DNA from: Gammaproteobacteria bacterium
GTDB lineage: Bacteria; Pseudomonadota; Gammaproteobacteria; Ga0077536
Length of the DNA stretch: 64,000 bases
Direction: 5' to 3'
Assembly: GCA_963662545.2 (NCBI GenBank)
Contig: CAXXLL010000003.1
Span: 1,856,001 to 1,920,000, forward strand
The stretch's first letter is position 1. The number at the start of each line of letters is the position of its first letter. The translations under genes and the position numbers were made by a program. The notes beneath the pieces are model-generated. The model saw only the letters and a list, made by a program, of their open reading frames with translations. It was not told the origin of the DNA and searched no databases. Positions 62,542 through 63,883 of this stretch are shown piece by piece.

Positions 62542-62615
62542 AATAGCGGTTGGCGCACAACGTAGCTGTTCGCGCGTTCCGCCTAACAAGTGACTGTGGT
62601 TTGAAGTCAATAGAA

Positions 62616-63566
62616 TTAGACTAGTTCGGGGTTCCAAGGGGTTCTGTTTTTGACCATGACATTGAGGATGGTCAACAGTTTTCGCATGCAGGCGACGAGT
62701 GCGACTTTGGGTACTTTCCCCGCGGCGATTAATCGTTGGTAGGTGCGTTTAATTTTCGGATTGCACTGGATAGCGGACAGCGTTGCCATAAACAATACGG
62801 TCCGAATACGGTAACGTCCGCCGCGTATTTTTCGTTTACCTTTAAAGGCCTCACTTTCTTTGTTCATGGGCGCGACCCCGACCAGGGCTGCGATCTGTTT
62901 ACGGTTAAGGTGGCCGAGTTCCGGTAGTTCGCTCAACAAGGTATAGGTGAGCACTTTGCCGACGCCTTTGGTGCTCATTAACACATCGCGTGTGTCGGAC
63001 CACCCGGGGGATTTATCGATGAGTCGGTCGAGGCGCGTGTCGAGTTTGGCGATTTCAGCATCGAGGTATTTCAGATGCCGTTGGATGGTGGTGCGCAGGG
63101 TGTCGGGCATGATCGCCAACCGATTTTTCTCCATGGTCGCCATTTCAAGGAGTTGGCTGCGTCGGACTAACAGGTCGCTGATTTGGCGTGTTTGTTGAGA
63201 TTTAGGGGGTGTGGCGCGCGGCTTGAGTGCTTCAGCGAAGTGGGCAATGGCGGCGGCGTCCAGGGCGTCGGTTTTGGCCAATCGGCCGGTGGCTTGAGCG
63301 AATTTGCGCACGTGGGTTGGATTGGCGACGCTGACGGCCAACCCCGCCTGCTGTGCGGCACACACGAAATCGCGCTCGAGACGCCCGGTGGCCTCAATGA
63401 CCACCCGCGTGGGTTGAATGGACTTCAGTTGCTTTACCGCTGAGGTGATACCGGCTTTGGAATTGTCGACACTGAATGCGGTACCTGACGGGCGCACGTA
63501 GAAATCCAGTTGCTGTTTGCCGGTGTCGACACCGACGTTAATTTCGTTGGGATTTGTAAGTTTCAT
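62616..63566 (-). CDS. IS110 DEDD recombinase/transposase
   Basis: 'VGVDTGK', 'IEATG', 'AKTDALDA', 'GVG', 'IAALVGVAP...ES', '[15 protein letters not shown]'. Confidence 0.95.
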
Positions 63567-63569
63567 AAG

Positions 63570-63750
63570 ATAAGCTGACTCTGCCTTGCAATACGGGCTC
63601 GGGGCCCTAATGACTGTTCGAGTTGTTACTTAAGAGCTATGCACCGCTCACACTTGTTAGCGGTCTCTGCACGCAGGAACCGTGGATCAATCGAGCTGGT
63701 GCATAGAGGCCTTCAGCCGTTACTGAAGGTGGGCCCCAATTTACCCTTTC
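63570..63750 (-). ncRNA. Putative bridge RNA of the IS110 element (boundaries approximate)
   Basis: 5' hairpin CCTTCAG/CTGAAGG; target loop in stem CTATGCACC/GGTGCATAG with guides TTGATCCAC and CTAACAAG; donor loop with ACAGTCA and TGCAAG. Confidence 0.82.
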
Positions 63751-63883
63751 TTTGCAAAAACGAACCATACAAATGGATCAACCGGACGTGTTACAGCGCG
63801 TTTCTTTAAAGCAGCTTCGCATTTTCGCTCTAAAGAAGCGCGCTGTAACACGCCGGTTATCCTAGCGTTAGGCGGCAGGGAAA

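What the first reader, a model, noticed from the sequence alone, without database searches (positions are those of the whole stretch)
62581..63790. IS110 element with a readable bridge RNA programmed against an integron attC site
Seen: removing 62589-63771 restores a 110-bp attC homologous to attC1. On the element (minus) strand the target reads TTGATCCA-TT-TGTTAG and the joined ends (donor) read ACAGTCA-CT-TGTAT. The non-coding region upstream of the recombinase holds a stem CTATGCACC/GGTGCATAG with an internal loop. One side of the loop is TTGATCCAC (63690-63682, the left target flank) and the other is CTAACAAG (63660-63653, the opposite strand of the right flank), separated by an apical hairpin. 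A second loop carries ACAGTCA (63617-63611, the left donor) and TGCAAG (63590-63585, versus donor bottom strand TACAAG). Both left guides are preceded by CTCGA. Established: this is the architecture of IS621-type bridge RNAs, and the donor is close to the IS621 donor as I recall it (ACAGTATCTTGTAT). The attC-targeting ISs I know of belong to the IS1111 group, which has sub-terminal IRs and usually a downstream non-coding region; this element has the IS110-subgroup layout. Inference: a natural RNA-guided recombinase whose ideal target is CTAACAAGTGGATCAA, the R''-spacer-L'' segment of this attC family.
Basis: partly seen in the sequence, partly recalled or inferred. Interest (0 to 1): 0.95.

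Follow-up and report, generated by a model that had tools for sequence, protein, structure and literature searches.

The report
RNA-guided jumping gene targeting integron sites
This is a small jumping gene of the IS110 family whose own guide RNA is written to match the recombination site (attC) of integron gene cassettes, and it belongs to a widespread, so far undescribed-looking branch of such elements that all land at the same spot of attC sites.

Summary
Window 62589-63771 (minus strand, 1183 bp) is an IS110-group element. It has a 205-nt non-coding left end, a 316-aa DEDD/Tnp recombinase (nearest solved structure: IS621) and a 27-nt right end.

It splits a 110-nt attC. A second, identical copy splits another attC at the same base and in the same orientation.

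The left end folds into a stem with an internal loop. The two sides of that loop read as the left target flank and as the complement of the right flank. A second pair of segments matches the element's own joined ends.

Relatives (12 genome and 80 metagenome loci) show that this is not chance:
- The stems covary.
- The left target guide tracks the left flank.
- The right target guide tracks the right flank.
- The donor guide equals the right end in 43 of 43 elements.

Most relatives sit in attC-like hairpins, antisense to the cassette genes.

Refinement: the sites used here have a TT core, whereas the guides and donor specify CT.

attC targeting was known for the sister IS1111 group. I found no paper describing it for IS110-group bridge-RNA elements. 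Verdict: a real, new member (in fact a clade) of a known kind, of moderate interest.

The parts
62589..63771 (-). Whole IS110-group element (1183 bp), counted with one copy of the 2-nt core at its right end
   Evidence: Junctions read. An identical 1183-bp copy lies on another contig. Assembly unitigs of public runs break at 62582 and 63772-63787.
62616..63566 (-). Recombinase gene, 316 aa (DEDD RuvC-like domain + Tnp domain)
   Evidence: PF01548 E=2.2e-22 and PF02371 E=1.6e-15. NF033542 'IS110 family RNA-guided transposase' 200.5 bits against a cut-off of 140. IS621 transposase 8wt6 E=1.7e-33. D14, E58, D100, D103 and S238 are invariant in 15 relatives and align with the IS621 motif positions.
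63567..63771 (-). Left non-coding end encoding the predicted bridge RNA
   Evidence: Fold z = -3.9. Homologous segment found full-length in 56 of 94 loci. Covariation.
63710..63729 (-). 5' stem-loop of the RNA
   Evidence: 6 of 7 pairs show compensatory changes across 48 sequences.
63637..63706 (-). Target-binding loop: basal stem (63698-63706 with 63637-63645, extended by GCUC/GAGC), internal loop, apical hairpin
   Evidence: (I16). 10 of 12 basal-stem pairs show compensatory changes.
63682..63690 (-). Left target guide TTGATCCAC. It has the same sense as the left flank, so it would pair with the flank's bottom strand
   Evidence: 8 of 8 identity to flank 63781-63774; the 9th base is C against T at core position 1. 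It is the only hypervariable block of the RNA alignment.
63651..63660 (-). Right target guide CTAACAAG plus two further bases (UG, handshake-like)
   Evidence: 10-nt perfect complement to the right junction 62583-62592 (I6). Family covariation TAACAAG/CTTGTTA and TAACCAG/CTGGTTA.
63611..63617 (-). Left donor guide ACAGTCA
   Evidence: Identical to the right-end 7-mer 62597-62591. Own guide + CT found after the stop codon in 43 of 43 relatives; other variants in 0 of 129.
63585..63590 (-). Right donor guide UGCAAG
   Evidence: Pairs with core + left-end top strand CTTGTA with one G:T wobble (read). GCAAG is nearly invariant in 48 sequences, as is TGTATG at the left ends.
63595..63607 (-). Hairpin between the two donor guides (GGGC...GCCC)
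   Evidence: 4 pairs, 99% paired, one pair with compensatory change. A rival long-range pairing with the 5' leader is equally compatible.
62589..62615 (-). Right non-coding end (27 nt): -35-like TTGACT (62610-62605), ACC (62600-62598), left donor ACAGTCA (62597-62591), core CT (62590-62589)
   Evidence: Joined to the left end, TTGACT lies 18 nt from TATGGT (63769-63764). No promoter-like site is found in the integrated copy (0 found).
63772..63873 (-). Larger piece of the interrupted attC. In cassette sense it holds L'' to R' (R' GTTAGGC at 63867-63873). The left target is 63781-63774 and the target core TT is 63773-63772
62581..62588 (-). Small piece of the interrupted attC. In cassette sense it is R'' GCCTAAC + A; on the element strand it is the right target TGTTAG(GC)
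62074..62541 (+). Cassette gene (GFA family) whose attC is interrupted. It runs antisense to the element
   Evidence: PF04828 E=1e-25; ORF.
61898..62008 (+). Intact neighbouring attC (attC1), which has CG in place of the CA that ends the left target

Best explanation
Window 62589-63771 is an active or recently active insertion sequence of the IS110 group. Its recombinase is directed by a bridge RNA encoded in the 205-nt left end.

One internal loop of that RNA carries two target guides. The left guide has the sequence of the 8 bases left of the insertion point. The right guide is complementary to the core plus the 6 bases to its right. Together they spell the R''-spacer-L'' end of this genome's attC family, read on the strand antisense to the cassettes.

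A second pair of segments matches the element's own joined ends (ACAGTCA-CT-TGTAT). The RNA can therefore bring the circular or joined-end form of the element and an attC together, for exchange at a 2-nt core.

The RNA's promoter is assembled only when the right end (-35) is joined to the left end (-10).

The element belongs to a clade in which the right guide is held on the conserved (T/G)GTTA of the attC R box, while the left guide varies with the L-box of the local attC family.

Shown here: the anatomy, the second copy, the covariation, and the attC context and orientation. Inferred from IS621 and seekRNA work: transcription of the RNA, its binding by the recombinase, and RNA-guided strand exchange.
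For: Protein:
- Pfam DEDD_Tnp_IS110 and Transposase_20.
- NCBIfam IS110 RNA-guided transposase above its cut-off.
- IS621 and ISCro4 transposases are the only PDB matches (2 sequences).
- DEDD and Ser positions are invariant (residues named in passages of PMC11208158).

Copies:
- 2 of 2 genomic copies are 100% identical over 1183 bp.
- Both lie in attC sites, at the same base and in the same orientation, with flanks that differ.

RNA structure:
- 97.1% of cells are paired against 86.1% in shuffles.
- 21 of 30 pairs show compensatory change (0 of 500 shuffles reach this); slid controls give 27-47% paired.
- Both guides are unpaired in the consensus.

Guides:
- The left target guide scores at least 7 of 9 with its own flank in 30 of 46 unique pairs, against 125 of 2042 non-cognate pairs.
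- The right target guide matches at least 7 of 8 in 22 of 29. The A/C guide variant goes with T/G in the flank in 27 of 29.
- The donor guide + CT is found at the right end in 43 of 43; other variants in 0 of 129.
- There is a 10-nt perfect complement between the right guide region and the right junction.

Target context:
- 33 of 37 unique right flanks start with xGTTA.
- 25 of 37 rebuilt empty sites fold as AAC...GTT-closed hairpins, and 21 beat all 20 shuffles.
- The longest ORF in the right flank is antisense in 31 of 32 sites.
- All 16 free perfect targets in this genome lie in attC sites.

Promoter:
- A junction promoter is seen in two co-shifted forms across the family. There is none in the integrated copy.
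Against: - No RNA data: no listed run is on record as RNA, and only assembled contigs could be laid.
- No Rfam family matched, even at E up to 10, so membership of the RNA rests on my own alignment.
- The used sites have core TT while the guides specify C at core position 1. This means a C-A mismatch for the left guide and a G-T wobble for the right guide.
- 16 of 46 cognate left-guide/flank pairs score below 7 of 9, some as low as 3.5. Several relatives therefore sit at poorly matching left flanks.
- The fold of the donor-binding part is not settled: a local hairpin and a long-range pairing are both compatible.
- 12 of 37 rebuilt sites did not fold as closed hairpins in my simple test.
Confidence: 0.86

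Rival explanations
1. The recombinase (perhaps with host factors) recognises the folded attC hairpin by shape, as the integron integrase does. On this view the sequence matches in the left end are by-products of past recombination or of chance.
For: The targets are hairpin-forming. Several relatives sit at sites whose left flank matches their left guide poorly. For ISPpu10 a target stem-loop adds specificity (abstract of bioRxiv 10.64898/2026.03.19.712850).
Against: The guides covary with flanks and ends across 46, 29 and 43 comparisons. They sit in a loop framed by covarying stems. The sister clade with other guides sits at non-attC sites. Shape recognition may add to base pairing, but it cannot replace it.
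Confidence: 0.05
2. It is a member of the known IS1111-attC group (relatives of ISPa21, ISPst6, ISKpn4) and therefore already described.
For: It shows the same target class, the same end of the attC and the same antisense orientation as reported for ISPa21 and ISPst6 (passage in PMC3001079).
Against: The long non-coding region and the guide RNA lie upstream of the gene (205 nt against 27 nt downstream). The IS1111 group has them downstream (passages in PMC11187229 and PMC11208160). No sub-terminal inverted repeat of 7 nt or more links the two ends. The nearest solved structures are the IS621 and ISCro4 transposases (that IS621 belongs to the IS110 group is stated in PMC11208160). I did not place the protein in a tree with named IS1111 proteins.
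Confidence: 0.03
3. The element is a dead relic. The RNA-like region is conserved only as part of the ends, and the two copies arose by duplication of a cassette rather than by transposition.
For: No expression data. Only two copies. 16 perfect free sites remain unused.
Against: The two copies are 100% identical, while their attC flanks differ at many positions and the neighbouring cassettes are unrelated. The ORF is intact with all catalytic positions. Stems keep pairing through compensatory changes, which indicates selection on the RNA.
Confidence: 0.06

Closest known systems
IS621 and other IS110-group elements with bridge RNA (Durrant et al. 2024, PMC11208160; Hiraizumi et al. 2024, PMC11208158; passages read)
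   Same: A DEDD + Tnp recombinase with a catalytic Ser. The RNA is encoded in the long left end: a 5' stem-loop followed by loops whose 5' side has the sense of the left flank and whose 3' side is complementary to the right flank. The core is included in the pairing. The donor core is CT. There is a short sub-terminal repeat. The promoter is rebuilt across the joined ends.
   Different: The protein match to IS621 is distant (E=1.7e-33 over residues 11-312). The target is an integron attC, not a REP element. The right guide is nearly constant across a clade. The sites used here have a TT core against a CT donor. The fold of the donor-binding part is unsettled.
IS1111-attC group: ISPa21, ISPst6, ISKpn4, ISPa25 (Tetu & Holmes 2008 and Post & Hall 2009 not held, seen only as citations; seekRNA shown in PMC11187229, passages)
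   Same: Same wider family of recombinases. The target is one end of attC sites, near the 5' end and antisense to the cassettes (PMC3001079 passage). An RNA carries matches to both strands of the target.
   Different: There the RNA and the long non-coding region lie downstream of the gene, and the ends carry 7-17 bp sub-terminal inverted repeats. Here the RNA is upstream and the repeat is 3-4 bp.
Group IIC-attC introns (PMC3001079, passage)
   Same: They insert near the 5' end of attC, on the antisense strand, and recognise the target with RNA.
   Different: They are retroelements (ribozyme plus reverse transcriptase), not DNA recombinases.
ISPpu10 (IS110 group) with a stem-loop-gated target (bioRxiv 10.64898/2026.03.19.712850, abstract only)
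   Same: An IS110-group element whose natural target lies next to or within a DNA hairpin.
   Different: Its target is an intergenic repeat of Pseudomonas putida, not an attC. A role of the hairpin is shown there and only conjectured here.

Membership tests
IS110 family, IS110 group (bridge-RNA / seekRNA-guided elements) | Recombinase with a DEDD RuvC-like domain and a Tnp domain carrying the conserved serine | tested here: met
   PF01548 and PF02371. NF033542 200.5 bits against 140. Alignment to IS621 over residues 11-312. D14, E58, D100, D103 and S238 are invariant in 15 sequences. IS621 residues D11, E60, D102, D105 and S241 are named in PMC11208158.
IS110 family, IS110 group (bridge-RNA / seekRNA-guided elements) | Long non-coding left end upstream of the gene and a short right end | tested here: met
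   205 nt (63567-63771) against 27 nt (62589-62615). The criterion is stated in PMC11208160 and PMC11187229.
IS110 family, IS110 group (bridge-RNA / seekRNA-guided elements) | RNA fold: a 5' stem-loop followed by a target-binding stem with an internal loop | tested here: met
   16 of 19 pairs of these two stems show compensatory changes in 48 sequences.
IS110 family, IS110 group (bridge-RNA / seekRNA-guided elements) | A second (donor-binding) stem with an internal loop | tested here: inconclusive
   The donor guides flank a conserved hairpin. However, the basal stem was not established, and a long-range alternative fits as well.
IS110 family, IS110 group (bridge-RNA / seekRNA-guided elements) | Guides that match both strands of the target and of the joined ends, covarying across relatives | tested here: met
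IS110 family, IS110 group (bridge-RNA / seekRNA-guided elements) | Shared core dinucleotide (CT) in target and donor | tested here: inconclusive
   The donor and right junction are CT in 38 of 38 unique sites. The left junction is CT in 36, TT in 7 and AT in 2 of 45. The window element's sites have TT.
IS110 family, IS110 group (bridge-RNA / seekRNA-guided elements) | Promoter rebuilt across the joined right and left ends | tested here: met
   By sequence only: TTGACT, 18 nt, TATGGT. In a second class both hexamers are shifted by 5 nt. No site in the integrated copy. Activity not tested.
IS110 family, IS110 group (bridge-RNA / seekRNA-guided elements) | Short (2-3 bp) sub-terminal inverted repeat flanking the donor, and no long inverted repeats | tested here: met
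   ACC...GGT here, ATC...GAT in L003 and AAC...GTT in L010. No repeat of 7 nt or more links the ends.
IS110 family, IS110 group (bridge-RNA / seekRNA-guided elements) | The RNA is transcribed, is bound by the recombinase and directs recombination | not testable with these tools
   No RNA run listed. Only contigs could be laid.
IS110 family, IS110 group (bridge-RNA / seekRNA-guided elements) | Match to a curated RNA family model | not testable with these tools
   Rfam 15 gave only two chance-level hits at E 4-7 to unrelated families. I saw no bridge-RNA family among the hits.
IS1111-attC group | Long non-coding region and guide RNA downstream of the gene | tested here: not met
   27 nt downstream; the RNA homology lies upstream.
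IS1111-attC group | Sub-terminal inverted repeats of 7-17 bp | tested here: not met
IS1111-attC group | Insertion near the 5' end of attC, antisense to the cassettes | tested here: met
   compared with the PMC3001079 passage.
Integron attC site (the target) | R'' RYYYAAC and R' GTTRRRY boxes closing an imperfect hairpin, repeated between cassettes, with intI in the genome | tested here: met
   GCCTAAC...GTTAGGC; a 110-nt hairpin at -66.9 kcal/mol against shuffles. 38 sites of this family in arrays. Two TIGR02249 matches above the cut-off, with arrays beside them. The two occupied arrays lie about 370-390 kb from the integrase genes, so they are clusters without an integrase of their own.

The most novel reading that the evidence does not exclude
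This is a dedicated RNA-guided parasite lineage of integrons. After group IIC-attC introns and IS1111-attC elements, it is a third independent lineage that has converged on the same end and the same (bottom, hairpin-forming) strand of attC. It holds one guide fixed on the universal R box and lets the other drift with the host's attC family. That convergence suggests that the real substrate is the single-stranded or extruded attC hairpin. The junction asymmetry seen across the clade (the left junction keeps the target's first core base in 9 of 45 sites; the right junction is the donor's CT in 38 of 38) would then be a natural footprint of transfer and inheritance of one strand only. This matches the single-strand excision reported for IS621 in vitro.
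Probability: 0.22. Interest if true: 0.75.

Novelty: new member of a known kind. Interest (0 to 1): 0.52.

Why it matters
Integrons are the main gene-capture system of Gram-negative bacteria. An insertion between R'' and L'' should freeze the cassette upstream, as proposed for IS1111-group insertions (PMC11616780 passages).

Finding a whole IS110-group clade aimed at attC has three consequences:
- RNA-guided recombinases have found this site at least twice within one family.
- It gives a natural series of bridge RNAs with one constant and one variable guide, useful for learning the rules of mismatch, wobble and register.
- It offers compact natural enzymes already programmed for a site present in many copies in many bacteria.

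The mismatch between target core and donor core, and its one-sided outcome, bears on the open question of whether these elements move one strand or two.

Tried and rejected
- **Rfam scan** of 58000-64000 at E up to 10: two chance-level hits only, so no curated model could be used.
- **Sequencing runs**: no RNA holder listed.
- **Laying four runs** gave only assembled contigs. They show unitig breaks at the element's ends, other attC sites joining at 63769, and the flank of the second copy. They show no joint across the element and no joined ends. One 189-nt contig of a run guessed to be RNA lies on 63628-63759, but this shows neither strand nor transcription. I draw nothing from it.
- **First attC test**: an exact or 1-mismatch R'' partner of R' was found in 12 of 37 sites. 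This was too strict, because R'' and R' need not be perfect complements. It was replaced by the fold-based test.
- **First right-guide script**: a faulty pattern caught only 2 pairs. It was replaced by reading alignment columns. The core counts stand.
- **Label script**: it mislabelled L009 (its real right flank is TGTTAT) and L074.
- **Tree**: the careful search did not finish. What I cite is the quick tree with SH-aLRT support and midpoint rooting. 5 of the 84 proteins were dropped as shorter than 290 aa or as duplicates. No named IS1111 or IS621 sequence was in it.
- **Tetu & Holmes 2008** is not held, and Post & Hall 2009 was not available. Their content is known to me only through citing passages.
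The supplementary tables of PMC11208160 and PMC11187229 list many IS110 elements with their targets and could already contain attC-targeting IS110-group members. ISfinder could not be consulted either.
- **The claim 'not found in print'** rests on searches of the held library only. PMC9229058 saw IS110-family elements in Shewanella integron arrays but stated that none interrupted an attC. My Shewanella loci L007, L011 and L012 suggest otherwise, but I did not examine that paper's strains.
- **Not run**: no structure or complex prediction, because neither would bear on the claim.
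Full report
**What is there**

Read on the minus strand, the sequence runs in this order:
- attC DNA ending in TTGATCCA (63781-63774);
- TT;
- an element that starts with TGTATGG (63771) and ends with ACC-ACAGTCA-CT (62600-62589);
- TGTTAGGC (62588-62581).

The element is 1183 bp long. It has a 205-nt non-coding left end, one ORF of 316 aa (62616-63566) and 27 nt after the stop codon.

The protein carries both Pfam domains of IS110-family recombinases. It scores 200.5 bits against NCBI's model 'IS110 family RNA-guided transposase', whose cut-off is 140. Its only matches among solved structures are the IS621 and ISCro4 transposases (2 distinct sequences; E = 1.7e-33 and 1e-32). 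The positions that align with the IS621 catalytic residues are invariant in 15 relatives. Those residues (D11, E60, D102, D105, S241) are named in PMC11208158, of which I read passages.

All four guide-like segments are at the coordinates given, and both left guides follow CTCGA. The stem CTATGCACC/GGTGCATAG is a perfect 9-nt inverted repeat (I16). It forms in the minimum-energy fold of the left end (z = -3.9; 0 of 200 shuffles fold as well).

In that single-sequence fold, six bases of each target guide are unpaired, and the first two of one pair weakly with the last two of the other. The family consensus leaves both guides fully unpaired.

Taking the element out leaves a 110-nt site that starts GCCTAAC and ends GTTAGGC. 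It folds into a long imperfect hairpin. Its larger part is 87% identical to the intact attC at 61898-62008.

**The rest of the genome**

The assembly (3 contigs) holds exactly two copies, identical over all 1183 bp. The second lies on another contig, in another attC with different neighbouring cassettes. It sits at the same base, in the same orientation and with the same two junctions.

The genome has 38 attC sites of this family (39 pattern hits, one of them unrelated). It has two integron integrase genes above the family cut-off, each with an array beside it. The arrays next to the integrases fix the sense of the sites: the CTAAC...GGATCAA end is the 5' (R''-L'') end in the direction of the cassettes.

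The two occupied arrays are about 370-390 kb from the integrase genes, so they are attC clusters without an integrase of their own.

The full target (8 left bases, any base, T, 6 right bases) occurs 16 more times. Every one is in an attC. Fifteen have core TT and one has core CT. Both occupied sites show TT at the left junction and CT at the right. The sites used therefore had a TT core, while the guides (C at the 9th left-guide base, G at the last right-guide base) and the donor specify CT. The one 'ideal' site is empty.

**Relatives**

A scan of one genome per species found 12 loci at 49-65% identity (best tblastn segment; 73 pattern matches, 12 confirmed). They come from Shewanella, Marinobacter, Bowmanella, Gallaecimonas, Allohahella, Methylobacter and one Anaerolineaceae MAG. 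A metagenome scan with a 15-protein alignment found at least 559 relatives, of which the best 80 were kept. The protein database holds thousands more (8000 scored, the limit of the search).

A profile of the left-end RNA region found it full-length in 56 of the 94 loci. In the alignment of 48 distinct RNAs nearly everything is conserved, with two exceptions: a 9-nt block at the place of the left target guide, and one or two positions of the right guide.

**Is the RNA structure real?**

On these 48 sequences, a structure made of the 5' stem-loop, the basal and apical stems of the target loop, and a hairpin between the donor guides gave the following:
- 97.1% of cells paired, against 86.1% in shuffles;
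- 21 of 30 pairs with changes on both sides, a number no shuffle reached (0 of 500);
- 27-47% paired when the partners are slid by 1-3 columns.

The 5' stem-loop shows compensatory change in 6 of 7 pairs, and the basal stem in 10 of 12.

The donor part is less clear. The small hairpin fits. So does a long-range pairing of its 5' arm with the RNA's leader, which has three compensatory changes at one pair. I leave this open.

**Do the guides track their targets?**

- *Left target guide.* In 46 unique guide/flank pairs the guide matched its own left flank at 7 or more of 9 positions (a wobble counted as half) in 30 cases. Among non-cognate pairings the figure was 125 of 2042. Sixteen pairs scored lower, some very low (3.5-5), mostly in one group of marine metagenome elements. 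The register of the match differs by one base between elements.
- *Right target guide.* 22 of 29 unique pairs matched at 7 or more of 8, against 223 of 620 non-cognate pairs. The non-cognate figure is high because most right flanks are alike. The informative variation is specific: guides with TAACAAG sit before CT-TGTTA (22), and guides with TAACCAG before CT-GGTTA (5), with 2 exceptions. Two odd guides (TATTAAG, GCCAAG) match their odd flanks in L035 and L032.
- *Left donor guide.* The element's own 7-mer followed by CT lies within 70 nt after the stop codon in 43 of 43 elements with a complete gene. It covers four variants (24, 17, 1 and 1). Another element's variant was never found there (0 of 129).
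- *Right donor guide.* It is nearly invariant, as is the left end TGTATG.
- *Handshake-like bases.* In the window element the right guide plus the next two bases is a 10-nt perfect complement of the right junction (I6). That is the arrangement called handshake pairing for IS621 (passages of PMC11208158).

**Are the relatives' targets attC sites too?**

- Of 37 unique sites with both flanks, 33 have xGTTA directly after the core.
- 25 rebuilt empty sites fold as hairpins closed by AAC...GTT, 46-126 nt long. 21 of these are more stable per base than all 20 shuffled controls.
- Twelve did not pass. For some the flank was short. For others (for example L005) the boxes are visible but the minimum-energy fold pairs differently.
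- The longest ORF in the right flank is antisense to the element in 31 of 32 sites, and in the left flank in 22 of 29. This is the arrangement expected inside a cassette array entered from the antisense side.

A quick maximum-likelihood tree of 79 proteins (SH-aLRT support, midpoint root, careful search unfinished) separates two clades:
- a 53-row clade that holds all 41 rows labelled attC-type;
- a 26-row clade whose right ends read ACAGTTG and whose flanks are unrelated to attC.

Within the first clade, a small group (L028, L031-L033, L039) has other right flanks.

**Life cycle features**

The right end carries TTGACT, and the left end carries TATGGT starting two bases in. Once the ends are joined, the two lie 18 nt apart. 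In a second class of relatives both hexamers are shifted by five bases in step (TTGACA, 17 nt, GATAAT). The integrated copy has no promoter-like site (0 found).

PMC11208160 states that excision rebuilds a promoter across the joined ends and that the RNA starts there (passages).

The donor is flanked by a 3-bp inverted repeat. It is ACC...GGT here, ATC...GAT in L003 and AAC...GTT in L010. No longer inverted repeat links the ends. These are the features that the two 2024 papers give for the IS110 group as opposed to the IS1111 group.

**How it most likely works**

By homology with IS621, the steps would be:
1. The RNA is made from the joined-end form.
2. One recombinase dimer holds the target loop on an attC. 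[quoted passage not shown]
3. Another dimer holds the donor loop on the joined ends.
4. The top strands are cut just 3' of the core and exchanged.

All of this is inferred. What is shown here is the anatomy and the covariation.

**A side result**

The left junction is CT in 36, TT in 7 and AT in 2 of 45 unique sites. The right junction is CT in 38 of 38. With a cut 3' of the core, the exchanged top strand carries the target's core at the left junction and the donor's core at the right. That is exactly this pattern.

It therefore looks as if the top-strand product is what is inherited when the cores differ. This would agree with the report that IS621 mostly moves one strand (abstract of bioRxiv 10.64898/2026.08.31.748434). 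An overlap of a single base would explain it as well. In four or five of the nine cases the left guide's 9th base matches the non-C base. I did not resolve this.

**Comparison with what is known**

RNA guidance in IS110-family elements is established (PMC11208160, PMC11208158, PMC11187229). Targeting of attC is established for the IS1111 group: ISPa21, ISPst6, ISKpn4 and ISPa25. For ISKpn4 and ISPst6 a seekRNA encoded downstream of the gene has been shown. Those elements, like group IIC-attC introns, enter near the 5' end of the attC on the antisense strand (PMC3001079, passage). That is the same place and sense as here.

The element here works like IS621 and meets the IS110-group criteria I could test. 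It fails the two structural criteria of the IS1111 group.

Six searches of the held library found no paper that describes IS110-group, left-end-RNA elements aimed at attC. Supplementary tables, ISfinder and the two founding IS1111-attC papers could not be read, so prior listing cannot be excluded.

**Verdict**

It is a new member, in fact a sizeable clade, of a known kind of system. It has a target class new for its subgroup, convergent with two other attC-seeking mobile elements. It is not a new mechanism. Interest is moderate. It would rise if the one-strand footprint or a dependence on the hairpin were confirmed.

Noticed in passing
window 63772-63773 and 62589-62590; loci L005, L010, L021, L027, L030, L041, L046, L053: The two junction cores differ. 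The left junction keeps a non-C first base (TT in 7, AT in 2 of 45 unique sites), while the right junction is CT in 38 of 38. This fits inheritance of the top-strand exchange product, or an overlap of one base.
   Followed up: partly
window 63730-63746 with 63595-63607 (alignment A3 columns 2-17 with 160-186): The RNA's 5' leader (GGGU...GRGGCCC) is complementary to the hairpin between the donor guides, with three compensatory changes at one pair. This may be an alternative fold or a switch. It competes with the local hairpin.
   Followed up: partly
loci L049-L058 (marine metagenome contigs): Closely related elements sit in attC-like sites whose left flank matches their left guide at only 3-6 of 9 positions, while the right side matches. 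They look like insertions guided by half of the target loop.
   Followed up: no
locus L026:1540-1770: A right end abuts a second left end directly (ACAGTCA-CT-TGTATGA). The gene before it has no RNA region upstream. It may be a head-to-tail tandem or a contig derived from a joined-end form. About 300 nt upstream lies an empty attC-type target.
   Followed up: no
window 59533-61802: Directly before the first attC of this array lie an ISL3-family transposase gene (59533-60612, +) and an IS481-like integrase-core gene (60624-61802, -). The array's edge is thus bordered by two other insertion sequences.
   Followed up: no
own genome, contigs C2 and C3: Besides the two arrays next to intI, there are five or six attC clusters far from any integrase, the largest with about 20 sites at C3:1917900-1949444. 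Some attC sites are truncated or carry internal duplications (for example C2:2113788 and C3:1920375).
   Followed up: no
loci L035, L038 and L028, L031-L033, L039: Sub-lineages inside the attC clade have reprogrammed guides. In L035 and L038 the left guide covers an RYYYAAC-type box (..TAACGCC). In L031-L033 it reads CAGTTAAC, with right flanks TGTCAG or TGGCAA. Whether these are other positions of attC sites or new targets was not settled.
   Followed up: no
loci L007, L011, L012 (Shewanella genomes): Members of the clade lie in attC-like sites of Shewanella. A survey of Shewanella integrons reported IS110-family elements in arrays but none interrupting an attC (PMC9229058 passage).
   Followed up: no
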